DNA of 64,000 bases from Dehalococcoidia bacterium (GTDB lineage: Bacteria; Chloroflexota; Dehalococcoidia; Lucifugimonadales; UBA3495), in the NCBI GenBank assembly GCA_965224325.1, contig CBDCYT010000006.1, positions 45,286-109,285 on the forward strand, written 5' to 3'. A program made the position numbers and the translations under genes. The notes beneath the pieces were generated by a model, which was not told the origin of the DNA, did no database searches, and was given only the letters and a program-made list of their open reading frames with translations. Positions 1,598 through 57,163 of this stretch are shown here, one piece after another; positions within the stretch are counted from its first letter, which is position 1, and each line of letters starts with the position of its first letter.

Positions 1598-3166
1598 TCA
1601 TCTATGGGCCTCCGCCCTAAGCCCGTTTATGGCAATAGGCAGACCTTCCATCAAGTCCGAAGCCACCATTCCGGCGTCGCCCGAGCGGTCTCGCACTTCC
1701 TCGGCAACTTGCCCGTGAAGGTACACGCCGCAGGATGCCGCGTCATCAGGCGAGAGGCCCTGAGCCATTAGCCCCGTGATGATTCCGCTCAGCACGTCAC
1801 CGGTGCCTCCGGAGGCCAAACCGGGGTTGGCGAAGGGTGAGATTCGGACCATGCCGGCCGGTTCGGCGATTACGGTGTGGGCTCCCTTGAGAGCCACGGT
1901 AACTTTCCAGCGGGTGGCCCAATGTCGAGCGGCCCCGGTCCGGTCCTGCTGCACTTGGGTGGTCCCATGTCCTGTCAAAGTAGCCATTTCCCCGGGATGG
2001 GGAGTGAGTAGCGTCGGCCTACGCAAACGCTGCCACCAATCGGCTAGTTGAGACAAGTTGTTCAGGCCGTCGGCGTCTATTAACGTGGGCATGTTTGAGT
2101 CTTGGTCCAGAAGCAACCGCTCCAGGAAGCCCGCGGTCCCCGGCGACCATCCAAGACCGCATCCCACTAGCAGCGCGTCGCAGCGGTCCATGTACGGCGT
2201 GATTATGCCGGCGGCGTCGACATGAATGCGGCCGTCGGCGTCCTCGGGGAGCGGCAGGTGAATTACCTCGGTAAGCTTGCCGGCGGCGATGGCGTAGACA
2301 CTTTCGGGGGAAGCCAGGGTTACCAGCCCAGCTCCAACCCTCAAGGCGGCTTGGGAAGCTAAGAAGGCCGCACCTATATAGTTTCTCGATCCCGCCACTA
2401 CCAACGCGTGGCCAAAGGTGCCCTTGTGGGAATCCGCGGGCCGGTGTGGCAGGCGCCGCCCGGCCCCATCAGGGGTTAGAAGCTCCAGGTCAATTTCCTG
2501 CTCTTCCCTTAGATCCGGAGGGAGGCCAATGTCCGCTACCTCCAGCTTGCCCACACGGGCGGCTCCCGGGAAGGCCAGCAACCCGGCCTTGGGTCGTCCC
2601 AAGGCCAGGGTTAGGTCTGCGATGGGGCACACCGGGTCAACCTCTCCCGAATCGGCATTGAGCCCGGTGGGGAGGTCCAAAGCCAACAGCAAAGGCGGCC
2701 GGGGCTTCTCCCGGACTTCCCGCAAGCGCAAGAGAGCGTCTTTGACAAGCCCTTGCAACGGCCGCGCCCGCCCGGTGCCCAAGACGGCGTCTATGACCAG
2801 GTGGGAACGGGCCAGAAGCTTGTCCAGCCAGTCCAGACCGGGGTCGCCGGCGGATTGGACCACCTGGACGCCGTAGCTGCGGGCCAGGTCCATCTTGGGA
2901 TCGCCGGTGGGGCGGCCGGCGATTACGTAGGCGGTGACCTCGGCTCCCCAGCGCCGCAAATGACGAGCGCTAACCAGCCCGTCGGCGCCGTTGTTCCCCG
3001 GTCCAACCAAGACTAGGACCAGCGCTCCGGCAGCCCGTCCCATCATGCGGCGGGCAGCCTCGGCTACTGCCAACCCGGCGTTTTCCATGAGAGCGTCCGT
3101 GCTGACTCCCCGATGCTGGGAGGCCTGCTCCAGCATGGTCATTTGAGCCGCGGTGACCACCTTCAT
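1598..3166 (-). CDS. nnr: bifunctional NAD(P)H-hydrate repair enzyme (epimerase / ADP-dependent dehydratase)
   Basis: 522 aa; YjeF_N-like N-terminus (LVLVGPGNNGADGLV) and carbohydrate-kinase-like C-terminus (GGTGDVLSGIITGLMAQG); its ATG overlaps the acpS stop (ATGA). Confidence 0.9.
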   Translation of the reverse strand: MKVVTAAQMTMLEQASQHRGVSTDALMENAGLAVAEAARRMMGRAAGALVLVLVGPGNNGADGLVSARHLRRWGAEVTAYVIAGRPTGDPKMDLARSYGVQVVQSAGDPGLDWLDKLLARSHLVIDAVLGTGRARPLQGLVKDALLRLREVREKPRPPLLLALDLPTGLNADSGEVDPVCPIADLTLALGRPKAGLLAFPGAARVGKLEVADIGLPPDLREEQEIDLELLTPDGAGRRLPHRPADSHKGTFGHALVVAGSRNYIGAAFLASQAALRVGAGLVTLASPESVYAIAAGKLTEVIHLPLPEDADGRIHVDAAGIITPYMDRCDALLVGCGLGWSPGTAGFLERLLLDQDSNMPTLIDADGLNNLSQLADWWQRLRRPTLLTPHPGEMATLTGHGTTQVQQDRTGAARHWATRWKVTVALKGAHTVIAEPAGMVRISPFANPGLASGGTGDVLSGIITGLMAQGLSPDDAASCGVYLHGQVAEEVRDRSGDAGMVASDLMEGLPIAINGLRAEAHR

Positions 3167-3561
3167 GGTTGGGGCGCCAGCCTCACCACCACAAAGGCAA
3201 CGGCGTATTCACGGGAGTGGGAGAGGCTCACGGAAATTTCCTCGACGCCAAGGGCCTGCGCCCGGGTCTTGGCCCGGCCTTCGAGCCGGATGGCGGGCGC
3301 TCCGCTTTGGTGCCGGACCACCTCGATGTCTTTCCAACCCACGCCGCGGACCCCGGTGCCGAGGGCTTTCATGGTGGCCTCTTTGGCGGCGAAACGGGCT
3401 GCCAAGTTAGGAGGCCGTTCCCGGCAATATGCTATCTCGCCGGGAGTGTAAACGCGGTCTAAAAACCGCTGTCCGTAGCGCTCCAAGACCTGCTTCACCC
3501 TAGATATCTCTATGATGTCGACCCCGGAGCCTAGGCTTGCGGCTGGTTGGGACCGGTTCAT
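3163..3561 (-). CDS. acpS: holo-[acyl-carrier-protein] synthase
   Basis: 132 aa; GVDIIEISRV...FAAKEATMKALG...SLSHSREYAVAFVVV is the classical AcpS pattern. Confidence 0.9.
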   Translation of the reverse strand: MNRSQPAASLGSGVDIIEISRVKQVLERYGQRFLDRVYTPGEIAYCRERPPNLAARFAAKEATMKALGTGVRGVGWKDIEVVRHQSGAPAIRLEGRAKTRAQALGVEEISVSLSHSREYAVAFVVVRLAPQP

Positions 3562-3642
3562 GCTGTTATGACGGCCATCCCGGAGCGGAGCGGCAACCGG
3601 GGGAGAGTATTGTGGATCCCTCCAGCTATGGCCTTCTCTCCA

Positions 3643-4524
3643 TCAACCGTGATCAGTATGTCCGGGCAGGTCTAGATTGGTCAGGATCTTGGAAACCGAA
3701 TAGCTTCTGTTGAGCACGTAGAAGTGGATACCGGGCGCCCCGGACTCCCAAAGCTCTCTTACCTGGCCGGTGGCGTAATCCACCCCAAGCTCCCGGACCG
3801 CATCGTCGTTATCGGCAAACTTTTCCAGTTGCCGGTCCAAAGAAGGGGGAATCTTGGAGCCACACAGCGAGGTGAACCGGCGGATCTGCGGCGTGCTCAG
3901 TATTGGCAGCACTCCCGGGATTATGGGAACGTCTATACCGGCCCGCTTCGCCCGGTCTGAGAAGTCGAAGTAGTCGCGATTGTCGTAAAACAGCTGAGTG
4001 ATAAGAAATTCGGCGCCGTGCGCTACTTTTAGCTTGGTGTACTCCAGATCAGCGGCCAAGTCGGTGGACTCGGTATGGCCTTCAGGATAGCAAGCGGCTG
4101 CTATGCCCAACTGGAAATGCTCCCGAATGTGGCCGATCAAGTCGGTGGCGTGACCGAACCCATCTGCAACCGGCTCTTGCTCAACCGGTCCCTGGGGTTG
4201 GTCCCCCCGGAGAGCAATGACGTTCTCGATTCCGGCGGTTTCCAACCTTTGGAGCACTCCATGGACCGCTTCTTTGGTTTGCCCCACGCAAGTCAGATGC
4301 GCCATCACCTCCAGGGCCGCTTCCGCCTTGATACGCAGTGTGATGTCCTCGGTGAACGCCCTGGTGGAGCCGCCCGCTCCGTAGGTGACCGACACAAAGT
4401 CGGGACGAAACGCCTTTAGGCGCTCAACAGTCCGAAATACTGCCGGGATCCCGTCCTCCGTCTTCGGCGGAAAAAACTCGAAGGAAATCGTCCGTGTCTT
4501 TGTTAAAATATCCTTGATTCTCAA
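3643..4524 (-). CDS. metF: methylenetetrahydrofolate reductase
   Basis: 293 aa; SFEFFPPKT...VSVTYGAGGSTR...HLTC...IENVIALRGD motifs; TTG start codon. Confidence 0.9.
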   Translation of the reverse strand: MRIKDILTKTRTISFEFFPPKTEDGIPAVFRTVERLKAFRPDFVSVTYGAGGSTRAFTEDITLRIKAEAALEVMAHLTCVGQTKEAVHGVLQRLETAGIENVIALRGDQPQGPVEQEPVADGFGHATDLIGHIREHFQLGIAAACYPEGHTESTDLAADLEYTKLKVAHGAEFLITQLFYDNRDYFDFSDRAKRAGIDVPIIPGVLPILSTPQIRRFTSLCGSKIPPSLDRQLEKFADNDDAVRELGVDYATGQVRELWESGAPGIHFYVLNRSYSVSKILTNLDLPGHTDHG

Positions 4525-30885: not shown

Positions 30886-31503
30886 GTGGAGGACTTGCGC
30901 AGCCGAATTGAACGGCGGGTCAGCGCCTTGCCCAGCGGCTTGAAGAAGCATATACAGCGGGTTGACACCATAGCCCGGGAGTTGGCGCCCCGTTTCGGAG
31001 TGGCTGAAGACCGGGCCTCCCTAGCCATGATAGCCCACGACGTAGCCCGGGCCATGGGCGACCAGGAGTTGCTGTGGAGAGCCGCGCAGTTGGGCCTTTC
31101 AGTGGGGGACGTGGAGCGGGCTAACCCGTTGCTATTACATGGACCGGTGGGAGCCGAGTTGTTGGGCCGAGAGGACGGCCTGGCCGATCCCTCGATTCAC
31201 CAGGCGGTTTATTGGCACACCACCGCCCACCCCTCTTTGGACACCCTGGGCAAGGTCGTATTTCTGGCCGACAAGCTGGACCCCTTGAAGGCCGCCGCCT
31301 ATCCCTATCAGGCCCGGCTGTACGAGCTGGCCGAGGTAGACTTGGACCGTGCCATACTGGAGTTTTTGACCCGTCAAACCGCCGCTTTAATTTCCCGCGG
31401 CCTCATGGTCCATCCGGCGGCAATCGAGACGCGGAACCGCCTCTTGGCCGGGTTGGGCCCGGCCGAACTCTCAGTGGCGAGTGTTCCGATGGCCCATAAT
31501 TGA
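30886..31503 (+). CDS. yqeK: HD-domain bis(5'-nucleosyl)-tetraphosphatase, YqeK-like
   Basis: 205 aa; HD motif (IAHDVAR), HGPVGAELL, FLADKLDP. Confidence 0.75.
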   Translation: MEDLRSRIERRVSALPSGLKKHIQRVDTIARELAPRFGVAEDRASLAMIAHDVARAMGDQELLWRAAQLGLSVGDVERANPLLLHGPVGAELLGREDGLADPSIHQAVYWHTTAHPSLDTLGKVVFLADKLDPLKAAAYPYQARLYELAEVDLDRAILEFLTRQTAALISRGLMVHPAAIETRNRLLAGLGPAELSVASVPMAHN

Positions 31504-31622
31504 TGTAGAATAGGGTATCAGGCTCCCTCTCGTGATCGCCACAGCGGGGTTTAAGCCAGAGTTAAAACCAGTCCTGTCAGGCGTTCACCGCACCCATCCT
31601 AGAGGGCAACTGGGGTGATTCA

Positions 31623-31943
31623 ATGCACGTGACACTTAGCGAGAAAGCAAAAGCCCACATTCGGGAGAAAGGCGGCGTTGCCGCCGTTGACCTGGTCTCT
31701 CTAGCCACTTGATCCGGGTCTAATGCTCGGGTATCGGTCGATACCCGCGTTAGCCGACGGAACCTCACGGCGTACCGGGCCGTCAAACTTGAGGATATTC
31801 AGCTAATGGTAATGCCGGGCTTGGTCCGGCGTACCGAGAATATGTATATCGACCTCAAGGAGTCCCTGTTTTCTCGCAACCTCGACGCTACGCTGGTGTT
31901 TGCCGGGGGTATCGTCCTGGGACGCCGGGTCCCTTTGTCCTAA
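31623..31943 (+). CDS. candidate selenoprotein (small IscA/HesB-like or CC/Se-motif-like protein), in-frame TGA at 31710-31712
   Basis: ATG 31623 (GGGGTGA upstream), then 29 codons, TGA, 76 more sense codons and TAA 31941. Read-through product: MHVTLSEKAKAHIREKGGVAAVDLVSLAT-U-SGSNARVSVDTRVSRRNLTAYRAVKLEDIQLMVMPGLVRRTENMYIDLKESLFSRNLDATLVFAGGIVLGRRVPLS. A SECIS-like hairpin starts 8 nt after the TGA. Confidence 0.6.
31720..31753 (+). promoter_or_regulatory. bacterial SECIS-like stem-loop
   Basis: Lower stem CTAATGC/GCGTTAG (one G-U pair), 5' bulge TC, upper stem GGGTATC/GATACCC, apical loop GGTC. Confidence 0.55.
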
Positions 31944-32270
31944 TCAAGGCTGTCCGGACGCGGCGCTCCCGACCTCGCGTGTCTCGCTGACTTAACCGGA
32001 CTTGGGGCTCCTGTCCTAATGGAGACCAATCCGGTGGCGCGTTCCGGACCCTTCGTGTCTCGCAGGCTTAATCAAACCCGAAGCGCTTGCCTCAGTCAAA
32101 GTTGTCCCTGCGCCTCGCTCCGGACCCTGCGGGTTCAACTGACTTAACGGGACCTGGAGCGCCTGTCTCAATCAAGGCTGTCCCGATGCGGCGCTCCGGA
32201 CCCTGCCTGTTAAGGTCACTTGACCTGACCCGGAGCACCTGTCTTAACGGAGACGCCGCGGGCTTACGGC
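31932..32270. repeat. ~4.4 degenerate tandem copies of a 72-80-nt unit
   Basis: Units start near 31932, 32010, 32090, 32162 and 32239; shared blocks CCTGTCYTAATCAAGGCTGTCC, GCGCTCCGGACCCTG, GACTTAAC. Confidence 0.6.
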
Positions 32271-32327
32271 TTGGTGACGGCGCGGGGCCCTACCGCCGTT
32301 CACAATGCCGCGCCTACACCGCCCCGA

Positions 32328-32774
32328 TTAAAATCCGCTGATAAGTTCCAGGATGGCGCCATCCGGGTCTTTAAAGCAGACCACCCCTATTTCGTTTCCG
32401 TCAGCCCCATTGAGCTTGTGCAGCGGCGCGACGAACTCCACATTTTTTTCCTTCAACTGTTGGTAGGCCTTGTCAATGTCCTCGACGGTGAAAGCGATGC
32501 GGCAGATACCGATGTTGTTGAGCGTGGGATAAGGCTCACCCTGCGTGGGAGGATCAATAAACTGCACCAGGTCCAGCACCGGCGAGTTGGGATCATCGCC
32601 CAGACGCATGAAAACCCCTCGCAGCTTGTTCGCTTTCACTCCCAGGGCGTCACCCGCTGCGGGATCTTCCATTATAAAATCGTTGACCGTCTTGAAACCC
32701 AGGTCTTGGTAAAAGGCGACAGATCGATCCATGTCTTTGACACAGATGTTTACATGAAATAACTTCTCTAACAC
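32328..32774 (-). CDS. VOC-family (glyoxalase/bleomycin-resistance/dioxygenase fold) protein
   Basis: 148 aa; HVNICVKDMDRSVAFY and ICRIAFTVEDID beta-alpha-beta-beta-beta modules. Confidence 0.85.
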   Translation of the reverse strand: MLEKLFHVNICVKDMDRSVAFYQDLGFKTVNDFIMEDPAAGDALGVKANKLRGVFMRLGDDPNSPVLDLVQFIDPPTQGEPYPTLNNIGICRIAFTVEDIDKAYQQLKEKNVEFVAPLHKLNGADGNEIGVVCFKDPDGAILELISGF

Positions 32775-33731: not shown

Positions 33732-33850
33732 CTCCGGGCTTGGGTTTCATTGGTCCTTGGCCCGACTACTGGGGAGTCCGGATGGGCCTCGGATCACCAT
33801 TCTACCAGCAAGCTGTCGTCGGCGGCTCCTGGGCCGCCGGATTTGCCTGG

Positions 33851-34039
33851 GCCATTTAGTTATCGCGACGACTCCTGTTTTCCCATGCACTTTGGGCTTG
33901 TCCAATGGCAGTGCAACATCAAGAACGCATGGATTCCCGCTTTCGCTGGAATGACGGGTGAGCCGCGGGAAAGGCGGGTGAGCGGTGGGCATGACGGGTG
34001 AGCGGCGGGTATGACCGGCGGCACACAATTAACACACCC
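33851..34039 (+). repeat. type III mosaic element, copy a
   Basis: Shares GCCMTTTAGTTATYGCGACGACTCCTGTTTTCCCATGCACTTTGGGYTTGTCCAATGGCAGTSCAACATCAAGAACGYATGGATTCCCGCTTTCGC... and ...GGCGGCACACAATTAAMACACCC with 34977-35385. Confidence 0.75.
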
Positions 34040-34343
34040 CGGGGTGATAGGCGGCCCAGGGGAGGAGGGCGCGAAGGAGGCGCTCCGGGCTGGGTTCCTG
34101 ACGGATAGAGGCGCAGCGTTCAAGGTAGCGGGCGGCAACGGAGAAGGTCGGGAGAAGGAAACCCGCGGCGGCGACCCGGCGAACGAAGGCCTGGGGAGAA
34201 GGTGTGGGCCGCTTATCCGCCTGGGCGCGAGCCCATGGGGTGCAGAGGTCGCCGGCCGCGCGTTGGACCATGAGCTGGGCGTAGGGCAGAGCCAATCTCC
34301 GGCGAAGGGAGCGGATGCGGGCCCGCAAAGAGCTAATGTTCAT
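34029..34343 (-). CDS. hypothetical 104-aa protein (cargo of the composite insertion)
   Basis: ATG 34343 with GAGGAGA 7 nt upstream; protein-like, GC3-rich sequence MNISSLRARIRSLRRRLALPYAQLMVQRAAGDL...; stop codon lies inside the end of type III copy a. Confidence 0.5.
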   Translation of the reverse strand: MNISSLRARIRSLRRRLALPYAQLMVQRAAGDLCTPWARAQADKRPTPSPQAFVRRVAAAGFLLPTFSVAARYLERCASIRQEPSPERLLRALLPWAAYHPGVC

Positions 34344-34410
34344 ACAGATTTCTCCTCGTGATTCGAGAGCCTCACCACGAACGGGGAAGGGCGCCCCGCG
34401 TGAGCGATGT

Positions 34411-34861
34411 TCATACGGATTTCTCCCGGGCGGTCCAAAGGGGCAGGGCGGCCTCCAGGGTCTGGACCTGGTCATGCAGGTCTTGGATTTCGGGATTTCG
34501 GGATTTCGCCAAATTTGGCGGAGTAATTGAGGACGGCGCGAATGGCGCGGAGGCGGATTTCCGGGTCTTGATTCTCCGGGTCTTGATTCTCGGGTTTTGA
34601 TTCTCGGGGAGGTTGCCGGGGTGAATGACAGCTTGAAAGGTGAGGCTTTGGAGGCAGCCTTTGGCGAGGTCGGCGGACTGGCGCTGCAGTTGGGCAAGTT
34701 GGTCGCGGAATTCGGGGTCCTGGAGTCAACGGTGCAAAGTGCGGCGGCCCACTCTGGAGAAGCGGGAGGCCTGGGCAATGGGCGGCGACGAGAATGGGGA
34801 GCGCCGATTGCTGGCGTGGAGAGAGGCCGGAGTTTTTTATTTCAGGGCCGTTGTGAGCCAT
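34411..34861 (-). pseudogene. decayed HTH-type (phage/plasmid-style) regulator gene
   Basis: The protein-like reading alternates between two frames. Segments are MAHNGPEIKNSGLSPRQQSALPILVAA | PIAQASRFSRVGRRTLHR-TGA-LQDPEFRDQLAQLQRQSADLAKGCLQSLTFQAVIHPGNLPENQ | PEIRLRAIRAVLNYSAKFGEI | QDLHDQVQTLEAALPLWTAREKSV. Two of the three frame switches coincide with tandem duplications. Confidence 0.5.
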
Positions 34862-34894
34862 TGCCTCAGTGGCCGTTTGATAGATTTGGCAGGG

Positions 34895-34916
34895 TGCTAA
34901 TAGCTGCCTATTAGCA
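34895..34916. promoter_or_regulatory. AT-rich perfect palindrome TGCTAATAG-ctgc-CTATTAGCA (operator-like)
   Basis: 9-bp inverted repeat about 35 nt upstream of the pseudogene ATG; compositionally unlike the GC-rich surroundings. Confidence 0.3.
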
Positions 34917-34976
34917 GCGTAGGGAGTGGTCGCCGGAGGGGTCAAGGGCGAAGTGTCGGGAGTTTAGGACGAGGGG

Positions 34977-35385
34977 GCCCTTTAGTTATTGCGACGACTC
35001 CTGTTTTCCCATGCACTTTGGGTTTGTCCAATGGCAGTCCAACATCAAGAACGTATGGATTCCCGCTTTCGCGGGAAAGACGGGGGAGCGGCGGGATGGA
35101 TTCCCGCTCCCCGGTCGGGGCCGGGGACAAGCTTCACGGGAATGACGGGTGAGCGGCGGTATGGATCCCCGCTCCCCGATCGGGGCCGGGGACAAGCTTC
35201 GCGGGAAAGACGGGTGAGCGGCGGGATGGATTCCCGCTCCCTGATCGGGGCCGGGGACAAGCTTCGCGGGAAAGACGGGTGAGCGGCGGGATGGATTTTC
35301 GCTCTCTAATCGGGGCCGGGGACAAGCTTCGCGGGAAAGACGGGTGAGCGGCGGGTATGACGGGCGGCACACAATTAAAACACCC
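34977..35385 (+). repeat. type III mosaic element, copy b
   Basis: Same arms as 33851-34039 but with an expanded hairpin-module array. Confidence 0.75.
35098..35357 (+). repeat. 4 tandem copies (~64-nt period) of the long hairpin module plus linker
   Basis: GGATTCCCGCTCCCCGATCGGGGCCGGGGACAAGCTTCGCGGGAAAGACGGGTGAGCGGCGGGAT repeated with starts near 35098, 35163, 35227 and 35293. Confidence 0.85.
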
Positions 35386-35453
35386 TGCCGTATTTACCTG
35401 GCGCGCGGCGCGGGGCAAAGCGGATTTGGTTGCCAAACCGCCGTCAAAAGGTA

Positions 35454-35483
35454 TTGACGGTACAAGAACAGGCGTTCTATAAT
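35454..35483 (+). promoter_or_regulatory. near-consensus sigma70-type promoter (TTGACG-18 nt-TATAAT)
   Basis: Read directly; about 35 nt upstream of the Cys-rich HTH ORF. Confidence 0.5.
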
Positions 35484-35520
35484 CGTCGCAATATTAGAAC
35501 GTATGTTTCGGAGGATGGCC

Positions 35521-35865
35521 ATGACTACGTCCCAACTAGCCAAGCCCCGGCCCGCTGATTCCACGGCGGACGCCATTCCGGAGTATTACCACTATGAAGA
35601 CACGGGGTGTGAAATATCTCCTTCCTGTCTCAACTGTCCCTTGCCCCAGTGCAAGTACGATGATCCCGGTTGGTTTCAGAGGAGCCGACGGATGGCCCGG
35701 GACTTGAAGGTTTGGTCGACGATCCAATCGGGAGGTCTAACGGTGGAGGAAGCGGCGGAACACTTTTCAGTGACGGTGCGGACGGTTTTCCGGATCATGC
35801 GCCGCTGCCGGGACGTGGCGGGGGAGACCGACGCCGCAGCATTAGCGGCCTTTGCCGCGGACTAA
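35521..35865 (+). CDS. small Cys-rich HTH protein
   Basis: ORF 35503..35865; ATG 35521 has GGAGG 6 nt upstream. N-terminal C-x5-C-x2-C-x4-C (CEISPSCLNCPLPQC), C-terminal HTH-like LTVEEAAEHFSVTVRTVFRIMRR. Confidence 0.6.
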   Translation: MTTSQLAKPRPADSTADAIPEYYHYEDTGCEISPSCLNCPLPQCKYDDPGWFQRSRRMARDLKVWSTIQSGGLTVEEAAEHFSVTVRTVFRIMRRCRDVAGETDAAALAAFAAD

Positions 35866-36017
35866 CGGTCTGGGTTTGACGGGACCATGGGAGAGGACTT
35901 CTCTCGCATAGGTCTACGGGCGCGGTCCCCGGACGCCACCTGAAGCACCCGCGTGCGGCCGACTGGTCCTGGCTAGTCCCTTGGGTCAGCCGGACGCCCC
36001 GGAATTTACGAACGTCC

Positions 36018-56101: not shown

Positions 56102-57163
56102 GTGGTTATCCTTTGGACGCTCGCAGCCTTGGGCGCCGGAGGTTTTACGGTTCTCGGCTGGACATCAAGAGTAATTATTTCCGAATTGTCCTCTAATGAG
56201 GAACGGTGTTTACCAAACGGGGTGTCCCTACCCCTCACTGCGCTGCCGGTTGGAGCCCATTTTGCGTCTCACTTTACGTTGAAGCCCTGGCGCAAAGGCA
56301 GCGATTACATCAGTTCCATCCCCGGCTCCACCTTGATCAGTGGCACCGCGGGGCTGCTGGTGGGTCTGGTGGTGGCCTCGCTGATATCGATCCCCCTCTA
56401 CAGCTTTAGCGGATGGCAGGGGTGGGGCGTGCCCATCATAGTGAGCGCGGTCCTGGGAATTGGCGGCCTTTGGGTCGGGGCGAGCCGGAAGGGGGACGTG
56501 CAGGCCGTCTTCCCGGCGCTGGAGGCCAGCAATGGAACGGGAAGCCCGCCTGCCGGGCGCACCCGCAACCGGAAGATCCTGGTGGACACCAGCGCTATCA
56601 TCGACGGACGCATGGCAGACCTGAGCACTACCGGGTTCCTTGAGGGAGTCCTGGTTGTCCCCAGGTTTATTTTAGACGAGTTGCGCCACATCGCTGATTC
56701 CGCGGACCCCTTGCGGCGCGCCCGTGGGCGCCGGGGGTTGGAAGTGCTGGGGCGCCTGCGGAAAGATAACTCCATCCCAGTGGAGGTCCTCGACGTGGGG
56801 GTCAGCCCCGGCGAGGAGGTTGACTCCAGTCTGGTGCAGTTGGCCCGCAGCATGAAATCCCCAATCCTTACCACCGACTTCAACCTCAACCGGGTGGCCG
56901 AGCTTCAGGGAGTGCAGGTGCTGAACGTCAACGAGCTGGCCAACTCCCTCAAGTCCATCGTCTTGGCCGGGGAAGAATTGCGGGTGAACATCATCCAAGA
57001 GGGCAAAGAGGCGGGCCAGGGCGTGGCGTACTTGGACGACGGGACCATGGTGGTGGTGGATGGGGGCCGGCGCTACCTCAACGCCTTCCACGACGTGGTG
57101 GTGACCCGGGTGCTCCCGACCGCTGCCGGCCGGATCATATTCGCTCAACCCAAGGGTGGTTGA
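56102..57163 (+). CDS. yacL: PIN + TRAM domain membrane-anchored protein (YacL-like)
   Basis: 353 aa; N-terminal TM segments, PIN core (ILVDTSAIIDGR), C-terminal TRAM; conserved yacL-ispD-ispF-cysS order. Confidence 0.8.
   Translation: MVILWTLAALGAGGFTVLGWTSRVIISELSSNEERCLPNGVSLPLTALPVGAHFASHFTLKPWRKGSDYISSIPGSTLISGTAGLLVGLVVASLISIPLYSFSGWQGWGVPIIVSAVLGIGGLWVGASRKGDVQAVFPALEASNGTGSPPAGRTRNRKILVDTSAIIDGRMADLSTTGFLEGVLVVPRFILDELRHIADSADPLRRARGRRGLEVLGRLRKDNSIPVEVLDVGVSPGEEVDSSLVQLARSMKSPILTTDFNLNRVAELQGVQVLNVNELANSLKSIVLAGEELRVNIIQEGKEAGQGVAYLDDGTMVVVDGGRRYLNAFHDVVVTRVLPTAAGRIIFAQPKGG

What the first reader, a model, noticed from the sequence alone, without database searches (positions are those of the whole stretch)
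31623..31943. Unlisted ORF with in-frame TGA and a SECIS-like hairpin: candidate selenoprotein
The six-frame track misses this ORF because it is split by TGA. On the + strand, ATG 31623 (GGGGTGA upstream) opens 29 codons (MHVTLSEKAKAHIREKGGVAAVDLVSLAT). TGA follows at 31710-31712. The same frame then stays open for 76 more sense codons to TAA at 31941, and the sequence is clearly protein-like (…AVKLEDIQLMVMPGLVRRTENMYIDLKESLFSRNLDATLVFAGG…). A 34-nt hairpin (31720-31753) begins 8 nt after the TGA. It has a 7-bp lower stem, a 2-nt 5' bulge, a 7-bp upper stem and a GGUC apical loop. As I recall it, the E. coli fdhF SECIS has the same design, with essential G and U in the apical loop and a bulged U on the 5' side. 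The residues around the TGA (LAT-U-SGS) resemble the Cys-containing TSGCSG loop of IscA/HesB proteins. The overall layout (M.V.L...AK..I...GG, then Sec, then a beta-rich tail) matches what I remember of small CC/Se-motif selenoprotein families. No sel genes lie in this window.
Basis: partly seen in the sequence, partly recalled or inferred. Interest (0 to 1): 0.75.

Follow-up and report, generated by a model that had tools for sequence, protein, structure and literature searches.

The report
Hidden selenoprotein gene with SECIS hairpin
This is a real but unannotated small gene whose in-frame TGA most likely encodes selenocysteine; it belongs to an already catalogued selenoprotein family of unknown function (the "CC/Se motif" family) that is widespread in Dehalococcoidia bacteria, so it is a good catch but not a new kind of thing.

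Summary
ATG 31623 opens 29 codons, TGA follows at 31710-31712, and 76 more codons run to TAA 31941-31943. A stable hairpin with a GGUC loop lies just downstream.

- Both halves are under purifying selection (dN/dS about 0.1).
- The same TGA column was found in at least 116 species-level genomes, almost all Dehalococcoidia. That scan required the hairpin sequence; loci found by protein search agree.
- The hairpin meets all four published bacterial SECIS criteria and shows compensatory synonymous changes.
- Distant homologues carry Cys (TGT) at the Sec column and lack the hairpin.
- The protein matches NCBIfam NF041239, "CC/Se motif family (seleno)protein", at E 2.4e-9 and 37.1 bits, just under the 40-bit cut-off. 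Relatives are tagged Pfam PF28096 CC_Se_fam.
- A confident AlphaFold model of a homologue has the IscA/SufA (HesB) fold. A profile alignment puts Sec on IscA Cys35, and the C-terminal CxC ligands are missing.

The window protein has no cysteine, so it lacks the family's name-giving Cys partner. The sel genes and tRNA-Sec are not in the window. Two homologue-bearing genomes are published as selenoprotein-rich. Verdict: a new member of a known family; function still unknown.

The parts
31612..31618 (+). Shine-Dalgarno-like GGGGTGA, 4 nt before the start codon
   Evidence: Read from the sequence. It is conserved as GGGGTGA in L001, L002 and L114 and as GAGGTGA in L003. An SD-like 4-mer lies upstream of the predicted start in 77 of 116 family members, against a 28% background.
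31623..31709 (+). Coding part 1: codons 1-29 (MHVTLSEKAKAHIREKGGVAAVDLVSLAT)
   Evidence: Translation. dN/dS against L114 and L001 is 0.09-0.10 at pS about 0.5. The codon-usage score is 0.16, within the range of the window's plausible long ORFs, 0.12-0.24. The N-terminal motif (A9, I13, G17-G18, D23-L24 and similar) is conserved across clades.
31710..31712 (+). In-frame TGA, codon 30: predicted selenocysteine codon
   Evidence: TGA sits at the same aligned column in all 7 protein-derived lineages and in 116 pattern-derived genome loci. Distant homologues have Cys (TGT) there. The column aligns with IscA Cys35.
31713..31940 (+). Coding part 2: codons 31-106 (SGSNARVSVDTRV...GRRVPLS)
   Evidence: Translation. 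dN/dS is 0.13-0.14. An exhaustive phmmer search found 11 true homologues, all gene-caller fragments that begin just after the Sec column.
31941..31943 (+). TAA stop codon
31713..31758 (+). Full SECIS-like stem-loop as folded (outer pairs, lower stem, bulge, upper stem, loop)
   Evidence: Minimum free energy is -25.7 kcal/mol, z about -3. Cognate 5' and 3' flanks fold better than chimeric ones across the family: -13.85 against -12.44 kcal/mol, Mann-Whitney p = 4e-4.
31729..31746 (+). Upper stem (7 bp) with apical loop GGUC (31736-31739); also encodes part of the conserved (E/R)VSVDT peptide
   Evidence: This is the RNAalifold consensus helix. Pair 24-33 is AU in 97 sequences, GC in 11, GU in 2 and broken in 0. 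The loop starts 23 nt after the UGA. It is the same GGUC loop as in E. coli fdhF.

Best explanation
Positions 31623-31943 (+) hold one gene for a 105-residue selenoprotein.

Decoding (inferred from the canonical bacterial mechanism, not shown here). The ribosome starts at ATG 31623. At UGA codon 30, instead of terminating, it receives Sec-tRNA(Sec) from the elongation factor SelB. SelB is recruited by the hairpin just downstream, whose upper stem starts 16 nt after the UGA and whose GGUC loop starts 23 nt after it. Translation then continues to TAA 31941.

The protein (fold modelled on a homologue that is 46% identical, alignment computed). It adopts the IscA/SufA (HesB) beta-sandwich fold. 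The selenocysteine sits between strands 2 and 3 of the model, at the position of the first cluster-ligand cysteine of IscA (Cys35 in GCSG). The C-terminal Cys-x-Cys ligands of A-type carriers are absent, and the window protein has no cysteine at all.

Function (inference only). The most likely role is a single-Sec nucleophile or ligand protein. It might carry or relay a metal, sulfur or selenium species, or act in redox chemistry, perhaps as a dimer as IscA does. It is unlikely to be a classical Fe-S carrier.

Family and origin. The gene is a divergent member of the catalogued CC/Se motif (seleno)protein family (NCBIfam NF041239, Pfam PF28096). The source organism is almost certainly a Dehalococcoidia bacterium. 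In that class the gene usually sits downstream of hinT-like and yqeK genes.
For: Frame and hairpin.

Coding on both sides of the TGA: dN/dS is 0.09-0.14 at pS about 0.5 against L114 and L001, and codon-usage scores are 0.16 and 0.09.

The TGA is conserved:
- Seven protein-derived lineages all have TGA as the first upstream in-frame stop, preceded by a conserved 29-31-residue N-terminus.
- A DNA pattern that allowed TGN at that codon hit at least 119 species genomes. 116 have TGA and a homologous read-through ORF. The 3 non-TGA hits are unrelated sequences.
- Apparent full-length database homologues with W at that position are TGA read under another genetic code (L133).

Cys/Sec pair: P0118, P0127 and P0132 have RC-C-GG where the Ktedonobacteraceae/Chloroflexia-type proteins have RC-U-SG. 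In L137 the codon is TGT and the region no longer forms the hairpin (-9.9 kcal/mol, z = +1.9).

SECIS. All four constraints of the published bacterial model are met: a 4-nt loop, a 7-bp upper stem, G then G at the first loop positions, 23-nt spacing, and MFE -25.7 kcal/mol. The model is in PMC13188914 Fig. 2 legend; the measurements come. GTA/GAT changes to GTG/GAC on both sides at synonymous sites in 11 sequences from at least 4 clades, with no A-C mismatch.

Family: NF041239 at E 2.4e-9, 37.1 bits, model positions 1-87 of 91. Sister clades score 40-49.7 bits. Homologues carry the precomputed tag PF28096 CC_Se_fam. The family is listed as a selenoprotein family in PMC13188914 Table 1.

Fold: AlphaFold2 model with pLDDT 87 and pTM 0.76. 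Foldseek's top 11 PDB hits are SufA, IscA, HI1723, 2p2e, AQ_1857 and DsrR; the best has E 7.7e-5 and TM 0.56. hhalign gives probability 82% and E 1.1e-5, with Sec on IscA Cys35.

Sec use in relatives: Dehalococcoidia bacterium UBA1141 (my L116) and isolate 10f4566d (my L075) carry the gene. They are listed with 49 and 46 selenoprotein genes, in a database built only from species with the Sec pathway (PMC13326102).

TGA is not reassigned: 18 of 45 long ORFs in the window end in TGA.
Against: - No selA, selB, selD or tRNA-Sec lies in the window, and the rest of this genome could not be examined. I found no other credible TGA-interrupted gene in the 64 kb. Sec use by this particular organism is therefore inferred from relatives.
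- The window protein scores 37.1 bits, below NF041239's 40-bit cut-off. It also lacks any Cys partner.
- The hairpin overlaps a conserved peptide, (E/R)VSVDT, so part of its conservation comes from the protein.
- The genome-wide sample was collected with a pattern that required the upper stem and Gly at +2. Invariance of those features in L014-L132 is partly by construction.
- The Cys form L137 still keeps TCG GTC GAT ACC.
- No Rfam family matches the hairpin.
- The structure model is of a homologue (P0014, with W at the Sec position), not of the window protein.
- There is no experimental evidence of expression or selenium incorporation.
Confidence: 0.88

Rival explanations
1. Pseudogene. A formerly intact gene was inactivated by a nonsense mutation, and the TGA simply terminates translation.
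For: The gene is split in every gene call. Database entries are 57-90-aa fragments. The Sec machinery was not seen in the window.
Against: The identical TGA column is kept in at least 116 species genomes and 7 metagenomic lineages. Both halves show dN/dS of about 0.1 at half-saturated synonymous divergence. A nonsense mutation would not be preserved across a bacterial class, with a co-conserved hairpin.
Confidence: 0.02
2. Two separate small genes: a 29-residue peptide ending at TGA, and an independently initiated downstream ORF. The hairpin would act only as an attenuator or as a by-product of the conserved VSVDT codons.
For: Gene callers do call a 29-31-aa ORF and then a second ORF in several loci. 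The hairpin lies inside codons for a conserved peptide.
Against: - There is no conserved start codon after the TGA. Callers pick different GTG, ATG or TTG positions, 5-22 codons downstream. In the window the first in-frame ATG is 31806.
- Residues immediately after the TGA are conserved in frame.
- Cys-containing homologues are single continuous proteins.
- The predicted fold needs both halves: strand 2 is before the Sec and strand 3 after it.
- In the protein-derived loci, whose codon choice no search pattern fixed, the Ser, Val and Thr codons of VSVDT are always TCG, GTC and ACC, and the GTR and GAY codons change together.
Confidence: 0.03
3. Stop-codon read-through or recoding that inserts a standard amino acid, for example Trp by near-cognate decoding or a reassigned TGA, rather than selenocysteine.
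For: Some database translations show W at this position. Sec machinery is unverified for this genome.
Against: - The W entries are TGA translated under another genetic code by the gene caller.
- TGA is the commonest ordinary stop in this window, ending 18 of 45 long ORFs.
- The residue at this column in TGA-free homologues is Cys, not Trp. A CGA (Arg) variant also exists.
- The hairpin matches the SelB-type SECIS model, including fdhF's GGUC loop.
- Homologue-bearing genomes are documented Sec users.
Confidence: 0.05

Closest known systems
CC/Se motif family (seleno)protein. NCBIfam NF041239 'Moor_selen_rel'; Pfam PF28096 CC_Se_fam. Listed in PMC13188914 Table 1 as predicted in Moorella thermoacetica, motif CxxU.
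   Same: Significant, full-length, colinear HMM match (E 2.4e-9, model 1-87 of 91). Syntenic relatives from sister clades pass the 40-bit cut-off. Small size of about 105 aa, a single Sec near residue 30, and Cys-containing homologues. Function unknown in both.
   Different: The window protein scores 37.1 bits, under the cut-off. It has no cysteine, so the Cys partner that names the family is missing (the local context is LAT-U-SG). Elsewhere in the family the partner Cys wanders between -4, -3, -1 and +3. The lineage is Dehalococcoidia rather than Moorella.
A-type Fe-S carriers IscA, SufA and ErpA (HesB fold; PDB 1r94, 1s98, 1x0g, 2d2a)
   Same: Same fold: Foldseek probability 1.00, E 7.7e-5, TM about 0.55. 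Profile-profile alignment gives E 1.1e-5. The N-terminal M-x-[IV]-T-L-S-x-x-A pattern is shared. Sec aligns with Cys35 of the G-C-S-G loop.
   Different: The C-terminal C-x-C ligands (Cys99 and Cys101) are absent. The IscA-type HMMs are far below threshold: TIGR00049 scores 13 bits against 58.8, and NF038090 scores 14 against 85. It cannot bind a cluster in the IscA manner.
HesB-like selenoprotein (TIGR01911, motif UxGP; PMC13188914 Table 1)
   Same: A small selenoprotein with the HesB/IscA fold in which Sec replaces the loop cysteine, followed by x-G.
   Different: No TIGR01911 match was reported for the window protein (E up to 10) or its relatives. There is no Pro after the Gly. The C-terminal half and the lineage differ.
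E. coli fdhF SECIS element
   Same: A hairpin immediately 3' of the UGA inside the coding sequence. GGUC apical tetraloop. A bulge on the 5' side below the upper stem.
   Different: The loop begins 23 nt after the UGA, against 18 nt in fdhF. The bulge is 2 nt (UC), not a single U. The stem is longer and more stable (-25.7 against -14.9 kcal/mol).

Membership tests
Bacterial selenoprotein gene (Sec-UGA plus bSECIS; model in PMC13188914 Fig. 2 legend) | In-frame UGA flanked on both sides by conserved coding sequence | tested here: met
   dN/dS is 0.09-0.14 on both sides.
Bacterial selenoprotein gene (Sec-UGA plus bSECIS; model in PMC13188914 Fig. 2 legend) | Apical loop of 3-9 nt and upper stem of 4-16 bp | tested here: met
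   4-nt loop GGUC and a 7-bp upper stem.
Bacterial selenoprotein gene (Sec-UGA plus bSECIS; model in PMC13188914 Fig. 2 legend) | G in one of the first two loop positions, usually followed by G or U | tested here: met
   The loop is G-G-U-C. It is invariant in all loci examined, though the DNA pattern required it in L014-L132.
Bacterial selenoprotein gene (Sec-UGA plus bSECIS; model in PMC13188914 Fig. 2 legend) | 16-37 nt between the UGA and the apical loop | tested here: met
   23 nt (31713-31735), counted.
Bacterial selenoprotein gene (Sec-UGA plus bSECIS; model in PMC13188914 Fig. 2 legend) | Minimum free energy of -7.5 kcal/mol or lower | tested here: met
   -25.7 kcal/mol.
Bacterial selenoprotein gene (Sec-UGA plus bSECIS; model in PMC13188914 Fig. 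2 legend) | Homologues with Cys at the Sec column (Cys/Sec pair) | tested here: met
   P0118, P0127 and P0132 have ...RC-C-GG..., and the codon is TGT in L137. These lie in a distant subfamily. No Cys form was found in the Dehalococcoidia clade.
Bacterial selenoprotein gene (Sec-UGA plus bSECIS; model in PMC13188914 Fig. 2 legend) | selA, selB, selD and tRNA-Sec present in the same genome | not testable with these tools
   Absent from the 64-kb window and from the fetched loci (no tRNA-Sec). The window's genome is not on record. Indirect support: homologue-bearing genomes UBA1141 and 10f4566d are listed with 49 and 46 selenoprotein genes.
Bacterial selenoprotein gene (Sec-UGA plus bSECIS; model in PMC13188914 Fig. 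2 legend) | Selenium actually incorporated at the UGA | not testable with these tools
   Needs 75Se labelling or mass spectrometry.
CC/Se motif family (NCBIfam NF041239 / Pfam PF28096) | HMM score at or above the curated cut-off (40 bits) | tested here: inconclusive
   The window protein (U written as C) scores 37.1 bits, E 2.4e-9, over model positions 1-87 of 91. Five of nine relatives from other clades score 40.0-49.7, and four score 30.9-37.8. Homology is significant, but the curated threshold is narrowly missed. PF28096 is not in the local Pfam copy, so it could not be scored directly.
CC/Se motif family (NCBIfam NF041239 / Pfam PF28096) | A Cys partner next to or near the Sec/Cys (the 'CC/Se' or CxxU motif) | tested here: not met
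   The window protein contains no Cys; its context is VSLAT-U-SGSN. Other clades have Cys at -4, -3, -1 or +3. I therefore file it as a homologue and divergent member by sequence, not as a carrier of the motif.
CC/Se motif family (NCBIfam NF041239 / Pfam PF28096) | Sec or Cys at the family's conserved column near residue 30 | tested here: met
   Alignments A3 and A5 have the column invariant.
A-type Fe-S carrier (IscA/SufA/ErpA, HesB family) | HesB/IscA fold | tested here: met
   Model pLDDT is 87. The top 11 Foldseek PDB hits are all of this fold. The model is of homologue P0014.
A-type Fe-S carrier (IscA/SufA/ErpA, HesB family) | First ligand Cys (IscA Cys35, G-C-S-G) | tested here: met
   hhalign puts the Sec column on Cys35. 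The residue is Sec, not Cys.
A-type Fe-S carrier (IscA/SufA/ErpA, HesB family) | C-terminal C-x-C ligands (Cys99, Cys101) | tested here: not met
   There is no Cys in the C-terminal half. The hhalign alignment ends before that motif.
A-type Fe-S carrier (IscA/SufA/ErpA, HesB family) | Family HMM above cut-off (TIGR00049, NF038090) | tested here: not met
   Only 13-14.5 bits against cut-offs of 58.8 and 85, and only in some relatives.
HesB-like selenoprotein (TIGR01911) | TIGR01911 HMM match and UxGP motif | tested here: not met
   No TIGR01911 hit was reported for the window protein at E up to 10, or for relatives at E up to 0.1-1. The motif is U-S-G-S, without Pro.

The most novel reading that the evidence does not exclude
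The Dehalococcoidia branch of this family may be an obligately Sec-dependent offshoot of the A-type Fe-S carrier fold. In clades such as the window's it has no cysteine at all. Sec has taken the place of the first cluster-ligand cysteine and the C-terminal CxC has been lost. That would imply a chemistry not described for IscA-like proteins, such as carrying or relaying selenium, sulfur or a metal on a single selenol, perhaps across a dimer. A whole bacterial class has kept this protein, with a SECIS hairpin almost unchanged inside the (E/R)VSVDT codons. No Cys version was found in that clade. Some marine lineages have replaced Sec with Arg (CGA) while keeping the hairpin.
Probability: 0.25. 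Interest if true: 0.55.

Novelty: new member of a known kind. Interest (0 to 1): 0.35.

Why it matters
Standard gene callers split or drop this gene in every assembly I looked at. Protein databases hold it only as 57-90-aa fragments, or as read-through translations with W written for the UGA codon. Correct annotation would add one selenoprotein to many Dehalococcoidia and SAR202 genomes, a group already noted for large selenoproteomes.

The family's function is unknown. Two results here give experimenters a starting point: the IscA/HesB fold with Sec at the Cys35 position, and the wandering or absent partner cysteine. The near-invariant hairpin sequence GAGGTRTCGGTCGRYACC also works as a simple DNA probe for the family. 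None of this changes what is known about selenocysteine decoding.

Tried and rejected
- Pfam (local copy) gave only noise for the read-through protein. It lacks PF28096.
- Rfam found nothing at the hairpin, with either gathering or permissive thresholds.
- The first protein search, with the single read-through sequence, found only one fragment.
I used a DNA pattern instead. My first pattern was miscounted by one N and matched nothing.
- The window's own genome is not in the assembly index, so I could not search it for sel genes.
- ARAGORN found no tRNA-Sec in about 1 Mb of fetched loci.
- The two Haft papers that probably describe the family are not held. One paper search timed out.
- A scan of the window for other TGA-split genes gave only antisense artefacts and one coincidence: metF and a downstream ORF lie in the same frame.
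- P0003, a 948-aa repeat protein, is a spurious hit.
- I considered a functional link to the neighbouring hinT-like and yqeK genes. The synteny holds in 77-90 of 116 loci but is absent in the Ktedonobacteraceae/Chloroflexia-type subfamily. I treat it as lineage synteny, not evidence of function.
- The sigma-70 promoter scan found nothing upstream.
Full report
OBSERVATION. ATG at 31623 opens 29 codons (MHVTLSEKAKAHIREKGGVAAVDLVSLAT). TGA follows at 31710-31712. The same frame then runs 76 further sense codons to TAA at 31941-31943. The mechanical ORF list shows only a 45-aa remnant, 31806-31943. A GGGGTGA Shine-Dalgarno-like motif lies at 31612-31618.

The hairpin also folds as described. It has a 7-bp lower stem (31720-26 with 31747-53), a 2-nt 5' bulge (31727-28), a 7-bp upper stem (31729-35 with 31740-46) and a GGUC loop (31736-39). 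Outer pairs extend the structure to 31713-31758. Energy is -25.7 kcal/mol, z about -3, and 1-3 of 200 shuffles fold as well.

IS IT ONE TRANSLATED GENE? A search of 5.8 billion proteins with the read-through sequence found one hit, a 64-aa fragment. Its metagenomic contigs, L001 and L002, are syntenic with the window: argG, an aminotransferase, an acyl-CoA dehydrogenase, HIT, HD, then the candidate. They have the same ATG, the same in-frame TGA and an identical upper stem.

An exhaustive phmmer search of 1.8 billion representative proteins, using the 76 residues after the TGA, found 11 true homologues. All are 57-90 aa long and begin 5-22 residues after the Sec column. That is the signature of a gene that callers split at the TGA. 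I fetched DNA for five of them. In all seven distinct lineages (the window, L001, and the loci fetched for those five) the first upstream in-frame stop is TGA at the same aligned codon. It is preceded by a conserved N-terminus of the form M-x-[IV]-T-[LV]-S-x-x-A-x-x-H-I-x-x-K-G-G-x-A-x-[VI]-D-L.

Against its closest relatives (L114, L001) the window gene shows dN/dS of 0.09-0.10 for the 29 codons before the TGA and 0.13-0.14 for the 76 after it. Synonymous divergence is about 0.5. Codon-usage scores are 0.16 and 0.09. The window's plausible long ORFs score 0.12-0.24, and most other long ORFs in the same test scored 0.06 or less. TGA is not reassigned in this organism: it ends 18 of 45 long ORFs in the window.

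HOW WIDESPREAD, AND IN WHAT? I scanned the GTDB species-representative genomes with the pattern TGN-N3-GG-N11-RGGTRTCGGTCGRYACC, which leaves the third base of the critical codon free. Of these, 116 have TGA and a homologous read-through ORF. The three non-TGA hits (Hydrogenedentota, Dechloromonas, Sandaracinaceae) have no homology and are chance matches.

The hosts are almost all Dehalococcoidia or Chloroflexota MAGs, including SAR202. A side branch lies in Ktedonobacteraceae and 'Chloroflexia' MAGs. The closest genome relative of the window is OZ244707.1, a 3.1-Mb Dehalococcoidia MAG chromosome (L114).

One caveat applies. The pattern demanded the upper stem and Gly at +2. Invariance of those features in L014-L132 is therefore partly by construction. 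The protein-derived loci form the less biased sample, and there Gly+2 is not universal: P0016-P0019 have U/R-S-T.

THE HAIRPIN AS A SECIS. The published bacterial SECIS model (PMC13188914, Fig. 2 legend) sets four requirements. The window element meets each.
- Apical loop of 3-9 nt and upper stem of 4-16 bp: the loop is 4 nt and the stem 7 bp.
- G in the first two loop positions, usually followed by G or U: the loop is GGUC.
- 16-37 nt between the UGA and the loop: the spacing is 23 nt.
- MFE of -7.5 kcal/mol or lower: the MFE is -25.7 kcal/mol.

I checked my recollection of the E. coli fdhF SECIS. The string is present inside fdhF in 5419 of 5426 E. coli genomes. It folds with a GGUC loop and a single bulged U on the 5' side. 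In fdhF the loop starts 18 nt after the UGA.

Across 110 distinct family sequences, RNAalifold keeps the 6-bp core of the upper stem. At pair 24-33 the counts are A-U in 97, G-C in 11, G-U in 2 and broken in none. The G-C cases are GTA/GAT to GTG/GAC, synonymous changes on both sides, in at least four protein clades. Lower stems differ by clade but are present in most sequences: 103 of 110 have 5 or more enclosing pairs. Cognate flanks fold better than chimeric ones, -13.85 against -12.44 kcal/mol, p = 4e-4.

The hairpin overlaps the conserved peptide (E/R)VSVDT. Yet in the protein-derived loci the Ser, Val and Thr codons are always TCG, GTC and ACC, the choices that make the stem and the GGUC loop. 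Rfam has no matching family.

CYS HOMOLOGUES. A profile search with 20 diverse full-length sequences found 141 proteins. Those spanning the critical column fall into three groups.
- W: P0014. Its DNA has TGA, so the caller used another genetic code (L133).
- R: P0016 and P0017. This is a genuine CGA in two marine contigs, with the upper stem retained.
- C: P0118, P0127 and P0132 have ...RC-C-GG... where the Ktedonobacteraceae/Chloroflexia-type branch has ...RC-U-SG....

In L137 the Cys codon is TGT. A GTT codon breaks the stem, and the region is less structured than shuffled sequence (-9.9 kcal/mol, z = +1.9). So a Cys/Sec pair exists, though only in the distant subfamily. No Cys form was found in the Dehalococcoidia clade.

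WHAT FAMILY? NCBIfam NF041239, 'CC/Se motif family (seleno)protein' (Moor_selen_rel), matches the window protein at E 2.4e-9 and 37.1 bits. The curated cut-off is 40, and the match covers model positions 1-87 of 91. Nine relatives from other clades score 30.9-49.7 bits, and five of them pass. Database homologues carry the precomputed Pfam tag PF28096 'CC_Se_fam'. That model is missing from the local Pfam copy.

[quoted passage not shown] The family is therefore already catalogued.

The window protein departs from it in one respect. It has no cysteine (context VSLAT-U-SGSN). In other clades the partner Cys sits at -4 (ICWKG-U, VCISS-U), -3 (VSCSS-U), -1 (EPLRC-U) or +3 (LQHSS-U-AGC).

FOLD AND LIKELY CHEMISTRY. 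I modelled homologue P0014, which is 46% identical to the window protein and has W written at the Sec position, using a 70-sequence alignment. AlphaFold2 gave pLDDT 87 and pTM 0.76, with Sec between strands 2 and 3. The top 11 Foldseek PDB hits are all HesB/IscA-fold proteins: SufA 2d2a (E 7.7e-5, TM 0.56), IscA 1x0g, 1r94 and 1s98, HI1723, 2p2e, AQ_1857 and DsrR.

hhalign of the family profile against IscA, SufA and AQ_1857 gives 82% probability and E 1.1e-5. It aligns the Sec column exactly with IscA Cys35 in G-C-S-G. The C-terminal C-x-C ligands are absent, and IscA-type HMMs score far below threshold.

My inference, not shown by any result, is a single-selenol ligand or nucleophile protein. 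It may act as a dimer and carry or relay a metal, sulfur or selenium species, or do redox chemistry.

CONTEXT. The upstream neighbours are a HinT-like HIT protein and YqeK, the symmetrical Ap4A hydrolase (TIGR00488, 95.8 bits against a 70.15 cut-off). YqeK lies upstream on the same strand in 90 of 116 genome loci and HIT in 77 of 116. This arrangement is absent in the Ktedonobacteraceae/Chloroflexia-type branch. I read it as lineage synteny.

SEC MACHINERY. The window has no tRNA-Sec. None of the roughly 30 larger ORFs I scanned carries a SelA, SelB or SelD domain. There is no other credible TGA-split gene. The source genome is not in the assembly index, so the decisive test could not be run.

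The indirect evidence is as follows. BSepDB was built only from species with the Sec pathway. It lists Dehalococcoidia bacterium UBA1141 (49 selenoprotein genes) and isolate 10f4566d-... (46) among its top ten (PMC13326102 Table 2). Both carry this gene (my L116 and L075).

VERDICT. This is a genuine, conserved, UGA-interrupted gene with a canonical bacterial SECIS. With about 0.88 confidence it encodes a selenoprotein. It is a divergent, cysteine-free member of the catalogued CC/Se motif family and has an IscA/HesB-like fold. It is a new member of a known kind. Interest is moderate to low (0.35): the call is correct and useful for annotation, but neither the decoding nor the family is new, and the function remains unknown.

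Noticed in passing
window 31942-32244: A degenerate tandem array of four 76-nt units starts at the selenoprotein stop codon (63% matches). It is unique to this locus: absent from the rest of the window and from the orthologous loci L001 and L114. No Rfam match.
   Followed up: partly
window 33732-36017 (repeats at 33944-34015 and 35068-35355): A 2.3-kb stretch has no ORF with good codon usage and shows a GC-skew spike of 0.19. It holds a 65-nt x 4.4 tandem repeat (93% matches) and a 20-nt x 3.6 repeat that share the core CGCGGGAA[AT]GACGGGTGAGC. The nature of this region is unknown.
   Followed up: partly
L135 601-603 and L136 (marine metagenome contigs; proteins P0016, P0017): In one marine clade the Sec codon is replaced by CGA (Arg). 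The upper SECIS stem and GGUC loop are still intact but the lower stem is weak. Arg is an odd replacement for a catalytic Sec. This could be a decaying or neofunctionalised copy.
   Followed up: partly
window 31501-31511: The sequence TGATGTAGAAT immediately follows the yqeK stop codon. It is conserved as TGATGTAAAAT in L001 and L114. It could be a -10 box for the selenoprotein gene, about 110 nt upstream of the ATG. The sigma-70 scan found no promoter.
   Followed up: no
window 3163-4524 (- strand): An ORF that resembles methylenetetrahydrofolate reductase (judged from the translation only) and the ORF after it, which resembles a phosphopantetheinyl transferase, lie in the same frame separated by a single TGA. 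I read them as two ordinary adjacent genes, not a read-through product. Neither was scanned against a family library.
   Followed up: no
family-wide (loci L014-L132): The cysteine that could pair with Sec moves between positions -4, -3, -1 and +3 in different clades. It is absent in several clades, including the window's.
   Followed up: partly
window 56102-57163 (+) and 32271-32762 (+): A 353-aa ORF with good codon usage has no Pfam match at E up to 1e-5. The 163-aa ORF downstream of the repeat array has no Pfam or NCBIfam match, and tblastn found it in only 1 of 116 related loci.
   Followed up: no
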